Source: an uncultured Verrucomicrobiae bacterium
GTDB lineage: Bacteria; Verrucomicrobiota; Verrucomicrobiia; Chthoniobacterales; UBA10450
Assembly: GCA_963815455.1 (NCBI GenBank)
Contig: CAWFGO010000002.1
Span: forward strand, 480,001-544,000
DNA: 64,000 bases
Direction: 5' to 3'
Both the position numbers and the translations under genes were made by a program. Shown piece after piece: positions 7,817 through 44,126 of the stretch. The stretch's first letter is position 1. Every line of letters starts with the position of its first letter. Below the pieces are notes generated by a model. That model worked only from the letters and a program-made list of their open reading frames with translations. It did no database searches and was not told the origin of the DNA.

Positions 7817-7947
7817 TGTCATCCCGAGCGCAGCGAGGGACCTCACATTCGCACTTAACGGGATCACACATTCCTGATTCATGATCGCTTCGTTGCTCCC
7901 GGGCGTTGTCTGTACTCCCGGGGTCCTTCGCTTCGCTCAGGATGACA
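7817..7947. repeat. GTCA-tagged palindromic unit (long ~130-bp type)
   Basis: tgtcatcccgagcgcagcgagggacctc...gggtccttcgcttcgctcaggatgaca; same termini as the units flanking the GIY-YIG gene. Confidence 0.85.
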
Positions 7948-8915: not shown

Positions 8916-9074
8916 TGTCATCCCGAGTTGCGCAGGCGCGTGTCGTCATCCCGAGCGAAGCGAGGGACCTCACAGTCGTCGTTCAAGGACAGAGCCACAC
9001 TGGAAGCCCGATCGCATGATTGTTCGCGAGCGTTGCATCTTCTCGCGGGGTTCTTCGCTTCGCTCAGGATGACA
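8916..9074. repeat. GTCA-tagged palindromic unit (8944-9074) plus a truncated arm (8916-8927)
   Basis: Reverse complement matches the units at 41770-42886, including the interior caatcatgcgatc. Confidence 0.85.
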
Positions 9075-10440: not shown

Positions 10441-10502
10441 ATTCAGCCTGTTTTTTCAATCGATCCGCTTAGCATCGAAAGCGAGAAGCGCTCCGGCAGC
10501 AG

Positions 10503-11120
10503 TTACTGCCTCTTTCTCCGTTCTTGCTTGCGAACGAGCGACACCATCACTCCTTGAATCTTCAGCTCGCGCGCTGGAATCAGATTCGGATAGCGCGGAT
10601 TTTCCGCTTTGAGATAGGGCCGGCCGCGCTCGACCACGTAACGCTTCAGGGTTGTTTCACCGTCGATCAAGGCGGCGACGATGTCCCCGCTCTGCGCTTC
10701 TTTGCTATTCTCCAAAATCACGATATCGCCATCGACAATATGCGCGCCGATCATCGAGTCGCCCCGAACCCGTAGCGCAAATGTGCCGCGATTTTTTGAA
10801 ACGTTGGCCGAACGGGCATCGAGCGAGACGTGTCCTTCGATCGTTTGCTCGGTCAACGCCGACATTCCCGCGGGGATCTGCCCGTAAATCGGAACATCGG
10901 TGATCCTGACTTTCATGGCCGGCGTAATCAGCGCTCGCGCCTTGCCAGCATGTCGATCCAGAAAACCTTTGCGCTCGAGCGCAGCGAGGTACTGCATCAC
11001 GGACGTCTGGCTGGCGAATCGGAAATGACGTTGGATTTCGCGCGTGCTCGGTGTAAACCCTTTCTCACGCTGTTCGCGCTGGATGAAATCGAGAATGTTT
11101 TGCTGGCGCTCAGTGAGCAT
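10503..11120 (-). CDS. lexA: LexA repressor
   Basis: LTERQ..ILDFI, PSTREI, IPAG cleavage site, GDSM Ser, TTLKR Lys. Confidence 0.95.
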   Translation of the reverse strand: MLTERQQNILDFIQREQREKGFTPSTREIQRHFRFASQTSVMQYLAALERKGFLDRHAGKARALITPAMKVRITDVPIYGQIPAGMSALTEQTIEGHVSLDARSANVSKNRGTFALRVRGDSMIGAHIVDGDIVILENSKEAQSGDIVAALIDGETTLKRYVVERGRPYLKAENPRYPNLIPARELKIQGVMVSLVRKQERRKRQ

Positions 11121-11153
11121 GATGAACAATTGCGCGTCCATTGATATGGCGCA

Positions 11154-11167
11154 AGTTCAAATGAACA
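11154..11167. promoter_or_regulatory. LexA box upstream of lexA
   Basis: AGTTC-AAAT-GAACA, one mismatch to the palindrome TGTTC-N4-GAACA. Confidence 0.8.
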
Positions 11168-17227: not shown

Positions 17228-18365
17228 TTGGCAACCATACGCCGCGGCGCGAATAGATGAAAGCCGAGCGCTTCCCGATTGGAAGCGCGCAGATAAAGAA
17301 GGTAGAGACCGATCGCCGCGAATAGGACGTTGGGGGTCCACGCGGCAATCCAGGATGGAATGCGATCGCCTTCGCCCAGCGCCAGAAAAAGATGGGTGAG
17401 AAAATTCATTGCGAATACGAGAAACACCGCGGCCGCAACGCTGGATAAAACGCCGCGGCGCGAGTAACCGATCCCGAGCGGGGCCGCGAGGCAGACCACC
17501 ACCAGACAGGTCCAGGGCAGAGCGAAACGGTATTGCAGATGGGTCTGAAATGGCGCGAGCCGGGTCGCCGGAAAATCGGAATTGAAATGCAGATATTGGC
17601 GCAGCTCCGGCACACTGAGATATTCCGCGCGCACATTCGCGCTGCCCAGGCGAAAAGGCGTTTCGCTCCAGTTGTCGATCTTAAGCGATGGAAGGATTTG
17701 CTCGTCCAGGATGTTTCCCACGCGATCGTAATGAACAACCTTTACGTTTTCCAATTCCCACGTTTTTGTTTCCGGAAGATAAACCGCGCGGGTCGGCCAG
17801 ATAATTCGTCACAATATTATTGTGGCTGTCCTGCTGCAGCACCTGGACGTTATTAAACTTGTTGTCCGCCAGGGCGGAAACTTTGGATGAACCAGGTGCG
17901 CGCGTCGGTCCGGTTCCGAAAGATTTGCGCTTCGATGGCAGTCTCGGAGCGCGAGCGCGCTTCATCGAGGAGCCGCTTGCGGGCCAGCTCGGCGTGCGGC
18001 GCGAGCGAATAATTGAGCGCCATGGTTGCCGCGACCGTAAGAAAGCCGATGGCAATGAGCGGCGAGAGGATCCGGGGGAGACTCAGGCCCGCCGTGAGCA
18101 TGGAAACGATTTCGTTGGCGCGGGACATTCGCCCGAGCGAAAACAGCAGCGCCAAAAGAAGCGATACCGGGAGCAAGACGATCAGGACCTCGGGAATCTG
18201 CGTCACGTAATACCGGAACGCGATGACGAGACCGACCTGCTCATCGAGGAACGTCGAGATATTGTCGCTGATGTCGAAGATGAGCCAGATCGAGATAAAG
18301 CCGACGATGCAGTAAAGATAGACCTGCAAAAAATTGCGAATGACGTAGCGATCCAGCAGCTTCAC
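17224..18365 (-). CDS. lptG: LptF/LptG family LPS export permease (two frameshifts near 17872 and 17793)
   Basis: MKLLDRYVIRNF, LGRMSRANEIVSMLTAGLS, AAWTPNVLF. Confidence 0.8.
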
Positions 18366-22423: not shown

Positions 22424-22437
22424 TGTTCACTTGAACA
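22424..22437. promoter_or_regulatory. LexA box upstream of imuB-C/dnaE2
   Basis: Perfect TGTTC-ACTT-GAACA, 30 bp upstream of ATG 22468. Confidence 0.88.
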
Positions 22438-22467: not shown

Positions 22468-23455
22468 ATGAAGCGCTCTGCTTCCCCAAAGAAAAAGCCG
22501 CTGGAAGATCGACAGCGTTCCATTCGGCAAATCCTCGCCATCCTCCATAAATGGGGAATTCACACGCTCGGGCAATTTGCCGCGCTGGATAAGGAAGAAA
22601 TCGCAGCCCGGCTCGGCCCCGAAGCCGTAGGGATGTGGGAGCGGGCCAATGGAAAATCGAAGCGGTTACTCAAGTTCGTCCAGCCCCCGGAGTTATTCGA
22701 AGAGAGCTTCGAGTTCGAACACGAGATTGAAACAGCCGAACCGCTCCTCTTCATCCTGCGGCGGTTTCTGGAGCAACTCGCCTTGCGACTGGGCGGCATC
22801 TATCTCGTGACCAAAGAACTGACCCTCCGGATTGCTTTTGCGGCGAACAAGAAGACTTACCAGCGCGTTTTCAAAATTCCGCAGCCGACCAACGATGTCG
22901 ATCTTCTTTTCCGTATGCTTGCCACGCATCTGGAGAATTTTCGCTCGGAACATCCGATCGTGGCCGTGTCCTTGCAGGCCCAGCCAATCCGACCGGCATC
23001 GCAGCAATTCGGTTTATTTGAAACCGCCCTGCGGAATCCGCAGCAACTTTACGAAACACTCGCGCGACTGAGCGCGTTGCTCGGTTCCGAGCGTGTCGGC
23101 ACGCCCGTTCTCGAAGAAACGCATCGGCCGGATGCATTTCGAATGGAGGCATTCAGGTGGCATGGGCTTCCAGCCCATGTCCCATCGGCAAGGATGCCGA
23201 TGCCACGACCCGCGCTGCGTCGTTTTCGGCCGGCGGTGTCGGCATCGATGTTCACTTCGAAAAACTCGGCATCTTCAGAGTGAAAAGATTCGCGGTCGGA
23301 TCGCCGAGCAATCCGGACCTTATCGCGCTTCCGGCAATTGGTGGGACGAAAAATCCTGGGAACGCACCGAATGGGATCTCGAGCTGGAGGACGGAACTGT
23401 CTGCCGATGTCATCGGAGCGGAAGCACCTGGGCGATCGATGGGATTTATGATTAG
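22468..23455 (+). CDS. imuB: ImuB C-terminal half (thumb/little finger, clamp motif, C-terminal domain); frameshift near 23260
   Basis: LHKWGIHTLGQFAAL, EIETAEPLLF.LRR, QFGLF clamp-binding motif, TLARL..LLG..RVG, GPYRASGNWWD...EWD. Confidence 0.8.
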
Positions 23456-23461
23456 GAGCCA

Positions 23462-23553
23462 GTCATCCTGAGCGGAGCGAAGCGAAGTCGAAGGATCCCG
23501 GTGCGCTGCCTTTAAGGTTCGCGACGGGATTCCTCGACTTCGCTCGGAATGAC
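23462..23553. repeat. GTCA-tagged palindromic unit (short type)
   Basis: gtcatcctgagcggagcgaagcgaagtcgaaggatccc...gggattcctcgacttcgctcggaatgac between imuB-C and dnaE2. Confidence 0.85.
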
Positions 23554-23557
23554 GAGA

Positions 23558-26500
23558 ATGTCTTATATCGAGCTTCATGCCTGCAGCGCGTTCAGCTTTC
23601 TGCGTGGCGGTTCATTTCCCGAACAATTAGCCCAAACCGCGGGCGAGTTGGAAATGCCGGCGCTGGCGCTTGCTCGATCGGAACGGTGTTTACGGCGCCC
23701 AACGATTCTCCGTAGCCGCGCGCGAGCAGAATGTCCGGCCTATTATCGGTTGCGAACTGGAGATGGAAGACGGCGGAATTCTGCCGGTGCTCGTCGAAAA
23801 TCGGATCGGCTACAAAAATTTATGCGAGCTTCTCACCCAGGCGCATTTGCGCAGCGAGAAAGGAAAATGTGCGGTGAGGTGGAGTGAGTTGCCGCAGTTC
23901 GCGGAGGGGTTGATCGCATTTTTGGGATTGGGGAGCACAGGCTGCCAGCCTGTTGGTTGCGGCAGCTTGCCGCAACCTTCTTCGAACCACACGCACACAA
24001 ACACCCCCGGTGTCCGGCAAGCTGCCGGACACTACAGGCTGGCAGCCTGTGCTCCCCAGAATGACGCGCACCGCGTCAAACTGTTGATCGACGTCTTCGG
24101 TCGCAAAAATGTTTTTGTCGAAATCCAACGGCATTTCATTCGCGGCGAAGAGCGGATCAACCGCGCACTTGTCGATCTTGCCCGGGCAAATCGCTTGCCG
24201 ATCCTGGCCACCAACGGCGTCCAGTATGCCAAGCCCAACGGGCGCGAAGTGCTGGACGTGTTCACCTGTATTCGCGAGCACACCTATCTCGATGCTGCGG
24301 GCAAAATGCTCACCCAAAATGCGGAGCGCCATCTCAAGAGCGACCGCGAAATGCGCGAACTCTTCCGGGATTTGCCGGAAGCGATCGAAAATACATCGCG
24401 CCTGGCCGAGCGTCTCACGTTTTCGCTCGAAAACATCGGCTACGAGTTTCCATCCTATCCGGTGCCGGCCGGTCACAGCATGGATTCGTTTCTGCGCACG
24501 ATCGTCTGGTTCGGCGCGCAACAGCGTTACGCCGCGGTCAGCACCGCGGTGAAAAACAAACTGGAAGAAGAACTCGCCCTCATCACCAAGCTCGGGTTCT
24601 CCGGTTATTTTTTGATCGTCTGGGACATCGTGAATTTCTGCCGCGAACACAACATCATGGTGCAGGGCCGGGGCAGCGCCGCCAATAGCGCGGTCTGTTA
24701 TTGTCTCGGGATCACACCGGTTGATCCGGTGAGCAATCATCTGGTCTTCGAGCGTTTCTTAAACGAGAGCCGGAAAGGCTGGCCCGATATCGATCTCGAT
24801 CTTCCCAGTGGTGACCGGCGGGAGAGCGTGATCCAGGAAGTTTATCGCCGTTACGGCAAACACGGCGCGGCCATGACCGCGAACGTCATCACTTATCGCG
24901 GACGGAGCGCGGCGCGTGAAATTGGGAAAGCACTAAATTTTTCGGCGACCATTCTCGATCGGTTCTCGCACTTGTTCGCGAACGGTGATTTTCCGCACAC
25001 GATGGAACTCGAATCGCAAATCGAACAGGCTGGATTGCCCAAAGCGCATCCGCGCATGCCCGCGTTCGTGAGACTGTATCAGGCGATCTACGGTTTGCCG
25101 CGCCATCTCGGCCAGCACTCCGGCGGGATGATTATTTGTCAGGACAAGCTCAGCTCGTTTGTGCCCTTGGAAAATGCGTCGATGCCGGGTCGCGTCGTGG
25201 CCCAATGGGACAAGGACGATTGCGAAGATCTCGGGATTGTGAAAGTCGATCTGCTCGGGCTCGGCATGATGTCGGTGATGCAGGATGCGTTTGAGCTCTG
25301 CCGCGAGCGCGGCCGCCCTCTCGATCTTGCTCACATTCCCAAAGATGACGCGGCCACGTTCGAGATGATGCAACAGGCCGACACGATTGGCGTTTTTCAA
25401 ATCGAAAGCCGCGCTCAAATGGCCACGCTGCCGCGGATGAAGCCGAAATGTTTTTACGACGTGGTCATTGAAGTGGCGATTATTCGGCCCGGCCCGATCC
25501 AGGGCGACATGGTCCATCCCTATCTGGCCCGCCGGGCCGGCCGCGAGCCGGTGACCTATTTCGATCCGCGTCTCGAACCGGTGCTTGGCCGCACCCTTGG
25601 CGTTCCACTTTTTCAGGAACAAATGCTGAAGATCGCGATGGTGATGGCCGATTTTTCCGGCGATGAAGCGGAGGAACTGCGGCGGGCCCTGAGTTTTCAC
25701 CGGTCAGAAGAACGAATGAACAAAGTCAGCGTGAAATTACGCGCGGCGATGGAACGGAAAGGCGTCGCCCCGGACAAGATCGACAAGATCATTCAGTCTA
25801 TTAGCTCATTCGCGCTTTACGGATTTCCGGAGTCGCACGCGATCAGCTTTGCGATTCTGGCTTACGGAAGCGCCTATTTGAAAGTGCATCGCGCGCCGGA
25901 GTTTTACGCCAGCCTGTTGAACAATCAGCCCATGGGTTTTTACACCTCGGCCACGATTGTAAAAGATGCCCAGCGGCATGGACTAAAGATCAAATCGGTT
26001 TGTGTTTCGCAATCCGATTGGCGCTGCGCCGTGGTCGATGACAACACAGTGCGTTTAGGGTTTTGCGTCGTAAGCGGATTACGCCGGGAGCACGGCGAAG
26101 CGATCGAGCGCGAACGCAAAGATCGACAATTTGTTTCGTTGGAAGATTTCAAACGGCGCGTGTCGCTTTCCAAAGATGAGCTGCGAACGCTGGCGGAACT
26201 GGGCGCGCTGAATTGTTTTGCGAAACATCGGCGCGCGGCGATGTGGCGAGTGGAGGAAGTACAGCATGACGACCTGCTGGGTCACTCGCGATTGGGGAGC
26301 GCAGGCGGCTCGCCTGCATCGTCCGGCGGCTCGCCGGACGAATATGGTTTGCAGCGAGCCGCCGCAAACTACAGGCCAGCGGCCTGTGCTCCCCAGAATC
26401 AAGAGTCGCCGCTCGTTCCCATGACCGTCCAGGAACGCGTCACAGCGGATTATCAAACCATGAATCTCACTACCGGCCCGCATCCGATGAAGTTACTGCG

Positions 26501-26834
26501 CAAAACTTTGCCGAACATCTGGCGGGCATCTGATCTTTCGCAAGCGCGACACGGCACGATCGTTCAGATCGCCGGCAACGTAATTTGCCGTCAGCGCCCG
26601 GGGACGGCGAAGGGATTTGTTTTTATCAGCCTGGAAGACGAGACCGGCGTTTCCAATGCGATTGTCGATCCTGATTTGTTCGAGCGATTTCGTCTTTTGA
26701 TCACCGAGGAAGCATTTCTGCTCATCGAAGGCGAAGTGCAAAACTCGGAGAATGTCGTGCTAATCAAGACGCGTAACATCCGGCCACTTGCGCATGAACG
26801 ACTCGTCGGCAGCGAGTCACACGACTTCAGGTAG
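23558..26834 (+). CDS. dnaE2: error-prone DNA polymerase DnaE2 (ImuC); frameshift near 23669
   Basis: YIELHACSAFSFLRGGS, GRGSAANS, PDIDLD, PRHLGQHSGG, YGFPESHA, RQRPGTAKG, C-terminal SHDFR tail. Confidence 0.95.
23929..24058. repeat. palindromic element inserted in frame in dnaE2
   Basis: Perfect 25-bp terminal inverted repeats tggggagcacaggctgccagcctgt / acaggctggcagcctgtgctcccca. Confidence 0.85.
26293..26395. repeat. second palindromic element of the same family in dnaE2
   Basis: tggggagcgcaggc...gcctgtgctcccca. Confidence 0.8.
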
Positions 26835-40563: not shown

Positions 40564-40733
40564 GTGTAGAGGCCGGCGTGCCTGCCGCGCCGGAGTCTGG
40601 CGAAGGCGGGTCGCCCAAAGGGAAATTGCGCCCGACACGGGCGCCGCTACACCGGCTTTGCCGGAGAATGGTGTAGAGGCGGGCGTGTCGCCCGCAAACC
40701 AAGACATTGCGGCCGGCACGGCCGCCACTACAC
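40564..40733. repeat. GTAG REP cluster upstream of RAYT (two doublets)
   Basis: gtgtagaggc(c/g)ggcgtg.cgccc arms paired with gcgcccgacacgggcgccgctacac and gcggccggcacggccgccactacac. Confidence 0.9.
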
Positions 40734-40740
40734 TGGCAGA

Positions 40741-41202
40741 ATGATCAAGGGACGACCTCCCCGGCTTGATCAAATTTATCAATCTTACGATCCGCCGCTG
40801 TTTTTCGTGACGATGGGAACGTTGCATCGCCGCAGGATCGCGAAACTGGGCAAAGCGCATGCTGCGTTTCGCAAGTATGCCCAACGCGCTATCGAATTCA
40901 ATGTGGCTGTCGGCCGATACGTGATCATGCCAGATCATGTTCATTTTTTCGTCCAGGGTAATCAGAGTTTCGAGCTGACCAAGTGGGTAAACGGATTGAA
41001 ACGCACAATCTCGGTGGCGTTGGGCGCGACCAGCGACCGCCCGCTCTGGCAACCCGGCTTCTTCGATCATCTCTTGCGCAACGATGAGAGCTACGCACAA
41101 AAGTGGGACTACATTCGTGAAAATCCGATGCGGGCCGGCCTCGTGCAATCCGTGGATGAGTGGCCTTATCAAGGCGAGATCGTCCTGATCGATCGCGCCT
41201 AA
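40741..41202 (+). mobile_element. rayT: REP-associated tyrosine transposase (RAYT, HUH/Y1 family)
   Basis: FFVT, VIMPDHVH (HUH), WQPGFFDH..R, YI.ENP.RAGLV; flanked by GTAG REPs. Confidence 0.9.
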
Positions 41203-41295
41203 GTGTAGAGGCGGGCGTGCCGCCCGCAGAACCAAAATAATTGCGGCCGACACGGCCGCCTCTACATCCTGCGCCCGACACGGCCGCCTCTACAC
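41203..41295. repeat. GTAG REP cluster downstream of RAYT
   Basis: gtgtagaggcgggcgtgccgcccgca...tgcggccgacacggccgcctctaca...gcgcccgacacggccgcctctacac. Confidence 0.9.
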
Positions 41296-41694
41296 TGAAA
41301 TGACCGGCTTTTCCCGGCAGCAGATTTCCAGCTTGTTCCCGTCAGGATCCTCGAAAAAGAACGCGTAATATCCGGGACTGTATCCCTGGCATACTTCCGG
41401 GCCTTCCATTGTTTTGCCGCCGATCTTGGCCACAAACTTCGCGATCCGATCGACTTCGTCGCGCGTATCCGCCCAAAACGAGATTCGGGTCCCGTTCGGT
41501 TGGTGCTGTCGATCCTCGGTAAACCCAAAAAATTCCGATGGCTTGTCCGGGCCGACCGAATAAAACGTGGCCCATTGGTTATCGGAGCGATTGCAGGTAA
41601 ACCCCAACTCAGGCAGGAGCTTCTCGTAAAATTTCATTGCCCGCTGAAAATCTTTTACCCGCAGATCAATATGATCGAATCGTCGTGTTTTCAT
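41290..41694 (-). CDS. VOC (glyoxalase/bleomycin resistance) family protein
   Basis: FDHIDLRVKD, YYAFFFEDPDGNKLEIC. Confidence 0.9.
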   Translation of the reverse strand: MKTRRFDHIDLRVKDFQRAMKFYEKLLPELGFTCNRSDNQWATFYSVGPDKPSEFFGFTEDRQHQPNGTRISFWADTRDEVDRIAKFVAKIGGKTMEGPEVCQGYSPGYYAFFFEDPDGNKLEICCREKPVISV

Positions 41695-41769
41695 TTTCGT
41701 GATTGTCGATCGCCCGGTTGAGTGATGTCAACGAATCCCGCGTCGGGGGCAAGCGGCGCAAACACACTC

Positions 41770-42134
41770 CGACATCCTGAGCGGAGCGGCCTGCCCGGCC
41801 GTAGCTTTATGCGAAGGCGGGCCTGCCCGGCCGTAGCTTTATGCGAAGGCGGGAAGGACCCCGCGAGTCGAGGCAACGTTCGCGAGCAATCATGCGATCA
41901 CGCTTCCAGGGTGGTTCGATACGCTTCAGTGCGACTGTGAGGTCCCTCGCTGCGCTCGGGATGACACCGCATCGCGCTCTTTTCTGTCATCCTGAGCGCA
42001 GCGAAGGACCCCGCGAGGAAAGACAACGTTCGCGGGCAATCATGCGATCGCGCTTTCAGAGCGGCTCGGTACAGTGAAATTCGTCCGGGAGGTCCCTCGC
42101 TCCGCTCCCGCCACGGCGGGCAGGCGGGATGACA
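41770..42134 (+). repeat. two tandem GTCA-tagged palindromic units upstream of GIY-YIG (41770-41966, 41985-42134)
   Basis: g(t/a)catcctgagcgnagcg..aaggaccccgcg ... caatcatgcgatc ... gaggtccctcgctncgctc..gggatgaca. Confidence 0.92.
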
Positions 42135-42225
42135 GACGAAGAGCAGCGCGAGACTCGCTGAGTCGCTTAATGGCTGCTTTCCAGTGCGGTCGGGCTCCGT
42201 TAAACTGCGCAAACGCCTTCGCGAA

Positions 42226-42495
42226 ATGAACAAGACGTTCTATGTCTACGTCATGACGAATCGCAGCCGGGTCGTTCTTTATACCGGAGTCACGAATGAC
42301 CTGGCGCGCCGGACATGGGAACACCAAAACGCGGAGGTCAAAGGCTTCACCAAGACTTATCGGGTGAATCGGCTCGTCTATTACGAAGCGTGCGACGACC
42401 CCCGCGTCGCCATTAGCCGGGAAAAAGAAATCAAAGGCTGGCGGCGTAGTAGGAAAAACGCACTGGTGGAAGCAGCTGAATCCAAAATGGAATGA
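42226..42495 (+). CDS. GIY-YIG nuclease family protein (indel near 42475; corrected frame continues NPKWNDL, possibly to 42679)
   Basis: YVYVMTN....LYTGVTNDLARR..EH, GFT..Y.V.RLVYYE, AISREKEIKGWRR..K; the family NPxWxDL motif is in the shifted frame. Confidence 0.9.
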   Translation: MNKTFYVYVMTNRSRVVLYTGVTNDLARRTWEHQNAEVKGFTKTYRVNRLVYYEACDDPRVAISREKEIKGWRRSRKNALVEAAESKME

Positions 42496-42586
42496 TCTTT
42501 CTTCGATGCTTTTTCAACCGGCGCCAAATCCCTCGTCTGTTGCGCAAACGCACAAAATCGAAATGAAGATCTACGCGCTCTTTTTC

Positions 42587-42886
42587 CGTCATCCTGAGCG
42601 GAGCGAAGGACCCCGCGAGTCGAAGCAATGTTCGCGAGCAATCATGCGATCACGCTTTCAGTATTGTTCGGTGCCGTGAACTTCGACTTTGAGGTCCCTC
42701 GCTAACGCTCGGGATGACATCCCATCACGCTTTTTCTGTCGTCCTGAGCGAAGCGAAGGACCCCGCGGGTAGAAGCACCGTTCGCGAGCAATCATGCGAT
42801 CACGCTTTCAGAACGGTTCGGTGCATTCAAGTGCGACTGTGAGGTCCCTCGCTACGCTCCCGCCACGGCGGGCAGGCGGGATGACA
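42587..42886 (+). repeat. two tandem GTCA-tagged palindromic units downstream of GIY-YIG (42587-42719, 42737-42886)
   Basis: Same unit and same orientation as the upstream pair. Confidence 0.92.
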
Positions 42887-42902
42887 GAGCGACAGCACGG
42901 AA

Positions 42903-42916
42903 CGTTCGCTTGAACA
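42903..42916. promoter_or_regulatory. LexA box upstream of imuA
   Basis: CGTTC-GCTT-GAACA; shares GTTC.CTTGAACATAT with the 22424 site. Confidence 0.85.
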
Positions 42917-43589: not shown

Positions 43590-44126
43590 ATGTTCGCCAC
43601 GATTTATTTGCCTAATTTTTATTTACAGGCGGCCATTCGACATCAACCAAAACTCCGCGCCCACCCGGTGGCATTGATCGATGCCGCCCAGGCAAAAATA
43701 ATCCAGCTCAATGAGGCCGCCGAAACAGCAGGGATCGGCAAGGGAATGGCCCCCAGCCAGGCGCTGGCGCGTTGTTTGCAGGTCGTCATCAAAACAAGGG
43801 AACAGGTGCAGGAAAATGTGATCGCCGAAATTCTGCTTCAACACGCGTTCACCCTGTCGCCCTATGTGGAGGCAACTGCACCCGGGGTTTGCACCGTCCA
43901 ATTTACCGACCAGCGCAATTTGGGAGCGAAGGTGTCTCGAGCGATCGATCAATTGGCCCGTTGTGAAATTACCGCCCAAGCCGCGATTGCGCCGACACCG
44001 GACATCAGTTTTCTCGCGGCCCACCTGGCTCATCCTCTCCTGCAAATCGAAGAGGGAAAAGAATTCCTCGCTCCGCTGCCGATCGAAACGCTCGCTGTAG
44101 CCGGGATCGTTGATCCCGGTCGTTGA
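43590..44126 (+). CDS. imuB: ImuB N-terminal half (IMS/UmuC-like palm-finger domain)
   Basis: MFATIYLPNFYLQA (no catalytic Asp), N.AA..AGI..GM...QALARC, SPYVE, IAPTP....LAA, FLAPLPIETL. Confidence 0.8.
   Translation: MFATIYLPNFYLQAAIRHQPKLRAHPVALIDAAQAKIIQLNEAAETAGIGKGMAPSQALARCLQVVIKTREQVQENVIAEILLQHAFTLSPYVEATAPGVCTVQFTDQRNLGAKVSRAIDQLARCEITAQAAIAPTPDISFLAAHLAHPLLQIEEGKEFLAPLPIETLAVAGIVDPGR

What the first reader, a model, noticed from the sequence alone, without database searches (positions are those of the whole stretch)
41770..42886. GIY-YIG nuclease embedded in tandem GTCA-tagged palindromic units: candidate mobiliser of a REP class
Seen: a lone small GIY-YIG gene (ATG 42226) has two ~130-150-bp units on each side (41770-41966, 41985-42134, 42587-42719, 42737-42886). 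All four are co-oriented and joined by similar ~18-bp linkers. Each unit has imperfect terminal inverted arms, a conserved core (gttcgcg.gcaatcatgcgatc.cgctt) and two divergent segments. Gene-less relatives sit at 7817, 8944, 15571, 22323 and 23462. Established: GTAG-tagged REPs flank, and are processed by, RAYT HUH transposases, and that architecture occurs 1 kb away. A second, CGTC-tagged REP class is known, but I know of no established cognate enzyme for it. Inference: this is an analogous nuclease-plus-hairpin system in which the GIY-YIG protein nicks or spreads the units. Alternatively the units could be transcribed structured RNAs bound by the nuclease.
Basis: partly seen in the sequence, partly recalled or inferred. 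Interest (0 to 1): 0.85.

Follow-up and report, generated by a model that had tools for sequence, protein, structure and literature searches.

The report
Ssn nuclease among its hairpin doublets
A tiny DNA-cutting gene sits between four copies of a hairpin-ended repeat that is scattered through this genome; the gene matches the Ssn nuclease family published in 2025, so the partnership is already known, and what stays open is whether the enzyme, which likely cuts beside these hairpins, also spreads them.

Summary
Four co-oriented units, each two inverted GTCA-tagged arms around an ~88-nt core, flank a single-domain GIY-YIG gene with a one-base frameshift. The protein is 40% identical over 85 of 94 residues to the NTS-flanked Neisseria SsnA orthologue, with the three tested catalytic positions kept.

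What differs: the arms are G·A-mismatched, GCGNAGC-capped hairpins that the published SRM pattern misses. They come as ~195 REPIN-like doublets. Two Ssn paralogues in this genome each match their own arm subtype.

Arms are enriched beside homologues (both sides in 15 of 23 loci, against 0.6% of random places) and denser in genomes with the gene. Two gene-less units in the window occupy junctions where relatives carry the gene.

No target duplication was found, and the core has no conserved RNA fold. Mobilisation is inferred, not shown. The cassette marks one breakpoint of a ~31-kb inversion separating lexA from imuA. The scan found this Ssn pairing before on other DNA (88 notes).

The parts
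41770..41966 (+). Unit 1: head-to-head doublet with class A core; decayed left tag; carries the nested insert
41788..41852 (+). Nested 2x32(+1)-nt GCCTGCCCG..GGCGG micro-insertion in the left arm of unit 1; a related soil contig has a unit at this spot without it
   Evidence: D10; X1 record 1: glyoxalase, 72 nt, insert-free unit
41967..41984 (+). Linker 1 (18 bp, CGCGCTCTTTT motif)
41985..42134 (+). Unit 2: class A doublet; 18-nt nested insert (about 42108-42125) in the right arm
42226..42495 (+). ssn-type single-domain GIY-YIG gene (Y8, Y19, E66), as called in frame. One extra base near 42472-42474; the conserved tail (LNPKWNDL) continues in the next frame to about 42510 and that frame stays open into unit 3
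   Evidence: two related soil contigs lack one base at 42474
42587..42719 (+). Unit 3: insert-free 133-bp class A doublet (left arm tagged on +, right arm tagged on -)
42720..42736 (+). Linker 2 (17 bp)
42737..42886 (+). Unit 4: class A doublet with the same 18-nt nested insert in the right arm
   Evidence: insert-free spacing in X2 record 11
7817..7947 (-). Gene-less class A unit at the ABC ATPase/permease junction, where G016, G004 and L072 carry arm-ssn-arm
8944..9074 (-). Gene-less class A unit at the HlyD/ATPase junction, where G001 carries unit-arm-ssn-unit and G002 has nothing
10441..10502 (.). Left breakpoint interval of the ~31-kb inversion whose right breakpoint is the ssn cassette; no arm remnant seen

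Best explanation
This is an Ssn-type GIY-YIG nuclease gene set among its own hairpin repeats, and the enzyme likely binds each GTCA-tagged arm when the DNA is single-stranded and nicks a few bases outside the tag, so that host repair would now and then copy, swap or tandemly amplify the units. Shown: the family match, the arm hairpin kept by compensatory changes, the gene-arm linkage, the subtype match between paralogue and arm, and turnover of gene and units at orthologous junctions. Inferred by homology to SsnA: ssDNA binding and cutting upstream of the tag. Inferred from geometry: in a head-to-head doublet the two tags face outward on opposite strands, so the two nicks would bracket the unit (or an arm-gene-arm cassette). 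Recombination primed by such nicks would move or overwrite the content without a target duplication. This copy of the gene is frameshifted as assembled; an assembly error is somewhat more likely than a recent mutation.
For: Protein: 40% identity over 85 of 94 aa to the N. gonorrhoeae SsnA orthologue (E 6e-18 at proteome-size database; 12 NTS copies in its 1.6-kb locus); Y6/Y17/E64 align to Y8/Y19/E66 (residues from PMC11893778 Fig. 3 legend). It groups with that protein in a 45-row clade (98/93) apart from 3 other-type GIY-YIG rows. Linkage: tagged hairpins within 300 bp on both sides in 15 of 23 family loci and 8 of 16 cross-phylum loci, 0 of 5 other GIY-YIG genes of this genome, 0.6% of 2000 random places. 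Co-occurrence: median 24.5 arms/Mb in 14 family genomes with an Ssn hit against 6.9 in 10 without (kin not independent). Arm stem: Watson-Crick pairing 0.945, 0.959 and 0.867 at three variable positions against 0.49, 0.83 and 0.50 permuted, in 218 arms; the mirror geometry occurs once. Subtypes: 55 of 55 class A/B doublets carry the AGCGA arm type seen beside this gene's clade and none the AGTCGA type; 76 of 95 short doublets carry only the AGTCGA type seen beside the second paralogue, whose inner flanks score positive on the short-class core profile in 15 of 15 cases against 0 of 10 for this gene's clade. Turnover: this clade sits at 4 different junctions in 6 genomes. Codon differences to G001 are 30 synonymous and 14 non-synonymous of 78 codons.
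Against: No biochemistry on this arm type. The published SRM pattern matches none of the four units and is not enriched in the genome (20 against 18-23). No target duplication and no clean filled/empty junction: relatives are only 75-80% alike. Arms persist without the gene: three genomes without any Ssn hit hold 6-9 arms of this subtype, as many as G004, which has the gene (6). The class A core shows no homology to ssn coding DNA (best E 0.23), so it is not shown to derive from a gene-carrying cassette. Class A copies are old (63% mean identity), not a recent burst. Single arms do not fold better than shuffles in the nearest-neighbour model (z -0.15 to -0.75), which lacks sheared G·A terms. 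A hydrolytic GIY-YIG nuclease cannot rejoin strands as HUH enzymes do (established knowledge, recalled).
Confidence: 0.6

Rival explanations
1. Domesticated ssDNA restriction only: the nuclease cuts incoming or exposed ssDNA at the arms and so tunes recombination, as SsnA does in Neisseria. The repeats were spread by something else (a RAYT or other transposase in trans, or plain gene conversion).
For: This is the only function shown in vivo for the family (PMC11893778). A RAYT lies 1 kb away. The second paralogue stays at one junction in 8 genomes. Arms occur in genomes without an Ssn hit.
Against: The RAYT has its own GTAG arms, and Di Nocera 2013 found no transposase gene flanked by CGTC units. 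The subtype match between paralogue and repeat population and the changing position of this clade are easier to explain if the enzyme takes part in spread.
Confidence: 0.25
2. The gene is a passenger: an Ssn gene carried between arms that moves by homologous recombination between repeats, here decaying. The units are kept for effects on neighbouring transcripts (terminators or stabilisers).
For: Frameshift in this copy. Units 1+2 and 3+4 are direct repeats that could loop the gene out. Whole units fold strongly as RNA through their arms (z -3.2 to -7.2).
Against: Relatives at ~90% have an intact frame, and the assembly shows frame breaks in 4 of 37 and 4 of 23 matched ORFs against 0 of 18 and 0 of 16 between two relatives. 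The strand-asymmetric G·A/GCGNAGC arm suits DNA recognition.
Confidence: 0.1
3. The units are structured non-coding RNAs bound or processed by the nuclease.
For: Conserved ~88-nt core with uneven conservation in 41 copies.
Against: No consensus fold on either strand (alifold 0.0). Core z-score mean +0.09 as RNA, 1 of 41 below -2. No segment A-B covariation (p 0.15). No Rfam family reached its gathering score. SsnA does not bind or cut RNA.
Confidence: 0.05

Closest known systems
Ssn nucleases (SsnA, CDD cd10448) with NTS/SRM hairpins; Chenal et al. 2025, PMC11893778 (read: parts 1-6 of 11 of the main text; supplements not opened)
   Same: Single-domain ~95-aa GIY-YIG protein; catalytic Y/Y/E spacing; gene flanked on both sides by directional HGTC-tagged hairpins that end in ..AYC; repeats dispersed in hundreds; the paper itself draws the REP/BIME and domesticated-element analogy.
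   Different: Arms have tandem G·A mismatches and a GCGNAGC cap instead of a perfect 8-9-bp stem, so the SRM search pattern misses them. They come as doublets with conserved cores. Two paralogues match two repeat populations. Activity untested.
CGTC REP families and HH dimers; Di Nocera et al. 2013, PMC3733652 (passages read)
   Same: CGTC/TGTC tag, head-head dimers with conserved spacers, no dedicated transposase.
   Different: Their four families have perfect 8-9-bp stems and 4-5-nt loops; this arm type does not fit that description (Figure 2 not visible to me).
RAYT-REPIN systems (RAREFAN preprint 10.1101/2022.05.22.493013, abstract read)
   Same: Single-copy enzyme gene flanked by doublets; separate repeat populations per enzyme paralogue; long persistence.
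   Different: The enzyme here is a hydrolytic GIY-YIG nuclease, not a HUH/Y1 transposase; tag GTCA rather than GTAG; replication of units by the enzyme is not shown.

Membership tests
Ssn (cd10448) | Single GIY-YIG domain, under 150 aa, no extra domain | tested here: met
   PF01541 on residues 5-77 only, 89 aa as called; conserved part ends near residue 96; the read-through frame runs on into unit 3
Ssn (cd10448) | blastp to SsnA at E<1e-10 over >75% of the query (the paper's criterion) | tested here: met
   85 of 94 aa, E 6e-18. Used the N. gonorrhoeae orthologue L074 as stand-in; the N. meningitidis protein itself was not in hand
Ssn (cd10448) | Catalytic Y6, Y17, E64 | tested here: met
   Y8, Y19, E66 in an ungapped alignment
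Ssn (cd10448) | Top CDD hit cd10448 | not testable with these tools
   No CDD library; the tree places it with the SsnA orthologue (98/93), apart from 3 other-type GIY-YIG rows; inner branching unresolved
Ssn (cd10448) | Tagged hairpin repeats on both sides of the gene | tested here: met
   2 upstream and 3 downstream within 300 bp
Ssn (cd10448) | Flanking repeats match the published SRM search pattern | tested here: not met
   0 of 4 units; 0 of 23 family loci; 2 of 16 GTDB and 5 of 8 plasmid-collection loci do. The paper offers the pattern as a search tool (71% of homologues), so this marks a variant repeat rather than a non-member protein
Ssn (cd10448) | Site-specific cleavage of ssDNA, not dsDNA or RNA | not testable with these tools
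   Needs purified protein
RAYT/REPIN (REPtron) | HUH/Y1 tyrosine transposase and GTAG-tagged REPs | tested here: not met
   Gene is GIY-YIG, tag is GTCA; the true RAYT is a separate gene at 40741-41202
MITE / DDE-transposase-driven element | Target-site duplication | tested here: not met
   195 doublets: 29 with a repeat of 2 nt or more, against 33.8 expected from shuffled flanks
Structured ncRNA motif | Conserved, covarying core structure; Rfam match | tested here: not met

The most novel reading that the evidence does not exclude
Ssn nucleases are the missing mobilisers of CGTC-type REPs: each paralogue keeps and replicates its own population of REPIN-like doublets by paired strand-specific nicks that bracket the unit, with host repair in place of HUH strand transfer, and the same nicks drive local hops of the gene and chromosome inversions such as the one that splits lexA from imuA here.
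Probability: 0.3. Interest if true: 0.72.

Novelty: new variant of a known kind. Interest (0 to 1): 0.33.

Why it matters
The enzyme-hairpin pairing is published, so this locus is not a new system. Its value is as test material. It offers an untested Ssn target type (G·A-mismatched mini-hairpin) that the published pattern overlooks, so the family's repeat association is probably undercounted. It also puts two paralogues with two separable repeat populations in one genome, which makes cross-specificity and the open question of what spreads CGTC REPs directly testable.

Tried and rejected
Core as a decayed ssn gene remnant: suggested by eye, rejected (core profile against 39 ssn loci, best coding hit E 0.23). 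Core as coding: lengths of 84-92 nt vary by single bases. Core as RNA structure: rejected; the top covarying column pairs form no helix. Target-site duplication: none above control. Inversion by recombination between two inverted units: no arm remnant at 10441-10502, so cause not shown. BLAST with the core across 40 relatives gave only 2 marginal hits, though the profile finds class A cores in G001; class A looks genus-restricted in those searched. PDB: only a weak UPF0213 hit (E 0.046). Sequencing runs: no RNA holder listed, and no run held half the words, so the source reads could not be seen and the frameshift could not be checked directly. Literature: 'REPIN + RAYT + GIY-YIG' gave 0 papers; 'SsnA + GIY-YIG' from 2024 gave only the Chenal paper; one search added nothing; one search did not list the Verrucomicrobia LexA paper, so that motif is recalled. 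No structure prediction or complex job was run. Supplements of PMC11893778 (the 29 curated SRM examples) were not opened and might already include this arm type.

Full report
Observation. Each unit is a head-to-head doublet: a left arm YGTCATCCTGAGCGNAGCGAAGGAYC on the + strand, an ~88-nt core, and a like arm on the - strand. Unit 1 is 197 bp because of a 65-nt nested insert. Units 2 and 4 carry an 18-nt insert. Related soil contigs (about 90% alike) show units at the outer positions without these inserts. The arm motif occurs 203 times in the 3.6-Mb genome and never in 3 simulations. A looser scan finds 195 doublets under 260 bp.

The protein. It is a lone GIY-YIG domain. A search for GIY-YIG ssDNA nucleases with repeats led to Chenal et al. 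2025 (PMC11893778; parts 1-6 of 11 read). That paper defines the Ssn family: ~94-aa proteins flanked by CGTC-tagged hairpins, which they bind and cut only as ssDNA, a few bases upstream of the tag, on one strand. The CGTC REP class was earlier said to lack a transposase (PMC3733652, passages). I fetched a N. gonorrhoeae locus whose 94-aa protein has Y6, Y17 and E64 and 12 NTS copies around it. The window protein aligns to it without gaps, 34 of 85 identical, with Y8, Y19 and E66 in register; E is 6e-18, past the paper's threshold. In a tree of 48 rows (4 left out: L069, L072, L005, L006, poorly translated or unaligned) both lie in one clade (98/93) apart from the genome's tRNA-type GIY-YIG proteins; inner branching is unresolved and bootstraps had not settled.

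Frameshift. One extra base near 42472-42474 shifts the last ~14 conserved residues. Two related soil contigs lack a base at 42474, and G001 and G016 are intact. The assembly shows frame breaks in 4 of 37 and 4 of 23 matched ORFs, against 0 of 18 and 0 of 16 between two relatives. An assembly error is thus plausible (my estimate 55%); the source reads were not found.

Gene-repeat linkage. A detector for tagged hairpins found arms on both sides in 15 of 23 family loci (the window's own two included) and on at least one side in 21 of 23; 8 and 14 of 16 in cross-phylum loci; 5 and 8 of 8 in the plasmid-collection loci I fetched (8 of 33 hits); 0 and 1 of 5 for other GIY-YIG genes; 0.6% and 14.9% of 2000 random places. 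The published SRM pattern hits 0 of the 23 family loci and is at background in this genome. Among 24 family genomes, 14 with an Ssn hit have a median 24.5 arms/Mb and 10 without have 6.9 (Mann-Whitney p 9e-4, overstated because kin are not independent and some genomes are incomplete). These counts include unpublished genomes G003, G008 and G015; without them the medians are about 22 and 6 (hand arithmetic). One genome with the gene has only 6 arms.

Arm anatomy. In 218 arms of fixed geometry, three variable stem positions keep Watson-Crick pairs far above permutation; a fourth is near-invariant and uninformative. Inside the stem sit GA..GA mismatches around GCGNAGC or GCGNAGYC. GCGNAGC is a known very stable DNA mini-hairpin with a sheared G·A pair, and RNA counterparts are much weaker (PMC13037366, passages). 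The mirror geometry occurs once, so the arm is strand-specific, as NTS is. The folding program gives single arms no significant stability, so the hairpin rests on covariation, not on energy.

Core. The class A core has 41 copies at 63% mean identity, no consensus fold, no covariation between its two variable segments, and no Rfam match above gathering score. The four units here and those at C1:381573 and window 8944 are one another's closest copies (77-85%, 81% and 79%; median of the other 37 is 67%). It is not detectably derived from ssn coding DNA.

Two enzymes, two populations. The genome has a second Ssn-type gene (L003) lying inside a single doublet, at the same junction in 8 genomes. All 55 class A and B doublets have the AGCGA arm type found beside this gene's clade. 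Of 95 short doublets, 76 have only the AGTCGA type found beside the second paralogue, 15 only the first type, 2 both, 2 untyped. The second clade's inner flanks match the short-class core ends in 15 of 15 cases, against 0 of 10 for the first clade and 1 of 14 for other clades. The short class therefore looks like an internal deletion of the arm-gene-arm cassette. Across 16 family genomes, all 8 with 8 or more second-type arms have an Ssn gene flanked by that arm type, and the 8 with 4 or fewer do not (G003 and G008 are among the first 8, G015 among the second). For the first type the link is weaker: 77, 13 and 6 with the gene, up to 9 without.

Turnover. The clade of this gene sits at the ATPase/permease junction in G016, G004 and L072, at the HlyD/ATPase junction in G001, elsewhere in L058, and between glyoxalase and imuA here. 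The first two junctions hold the gene-less units 7817 and 8944 in this window. In other relatives those slots are empty or hold other repeats. No target duplication is seen, and relatives are too distant for base-level junctions.

Inversion. In 4 of 4 relatives with upstream sequence lexA directly precedes imuA, G001 with a decayed class A unit between them. G002 is collinear with the window except that 10.5-41.7 kb is inverted. The ssn cassette fills the right breakpoint. A soil contig spans the left junction (X4 record 25), so it is not an assembly artefact. No arm remains at the left breakpoint, so a causal role is unproven.

Mechanism. Shown: family match, arm hairpin, linkage, subtype match, turnover. 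Inferred: ssDNA binding and nicking outside each tag; paired nicks bracketing a doublet; repair-driven copying, swapping and tandem growth. The main rival is a domesticated ssDNA restriction role with the repeats spread by other means.

Verdict. It works like, and by protein criteria belongs to, the Ssn/SRM system; the repeat is a variant outside the published pattern. The scan has 88 earlier notes on this pairing in at least 81 genomes, several naming the same gap in the pattern; they are unchecked AI notes and not support. Interest 0.33; the bolder reading (Ssn as RAYT-like mobiliser of CGTC REPs) has probability 0.3.

Noticed in passing
window 10441-10502 and 41695-42900: A ~31-kb inversion relative to G001 and G002 separates lexA (10503-11141) from imuA (42944); the ssn cassette fills the right breakpoint.
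   Followed up: partly
window 42903-42916, 22424-22437, 11154-11167: GTTC-N4-GAAC boxes upstream of imuA, the imuB C-terminal gene and lexA; they fit the Verrucomicrobia LexA motif (recalled, not from a call).
   Followed up: partly
window 43590-44126 and 22468-26834: imuB is split: the IMS N-terminal half follows imuA, while the C-terminal half with dnaE2 lies 20 kb away, flanked by short doublets; G002 is split in the same way.
   Followed up: no
window 41788-41852, 42108-42125, 42860-42877; 13 matches genome-wide: CCTGCCCG..GGCGGG micro-insertions land inside the arms; similar hairpins lie upstream of other-type GIY-YIG genes L001 and L006. Already noted by the scan (e1-9852228, e1-9924061).
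   Followed up: partly
L003 = G000:C3:443596-444045: Second Ssn-type gene inside one doublet, fixed between a MoxR-like and a DUF58-like gene (names recalled) in 8 genomes; likely parent of the ~92-nt doublet class.
   Followed up: yes
L004, L005, L007 (tRNA genes), L006 (tmRNA-like gene), L009 (23S rRNA): Other small GIY-YIG genes sit directly behind tRNA or tmRNA-like genes, two with partial tRNA duplicates, and one inside 23S rRNA.
   Followed up: no
window 40564-41296: RAYT gene (40741-41202) with its own GTAG-type arms; G001 has the same RAYT-glyoxalase pair.
   Followed up: partly
window 17787-17859, 19114, 23265, 23670: Frame breaks in conserved genes (LptG-like, DinG-like, imuB-C, dnaE2) point to indel errors in this assembly.
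   Followed up: partly
G000:C3:208676-209443: Tandem array of four near-identical class B doublets with a ~206-bp period and no gene.
   Followed up: no
L058:1501-1991; L014: ssn homologues with an internal duplication or interruption that includes arm and gene start.
   Followed up: no
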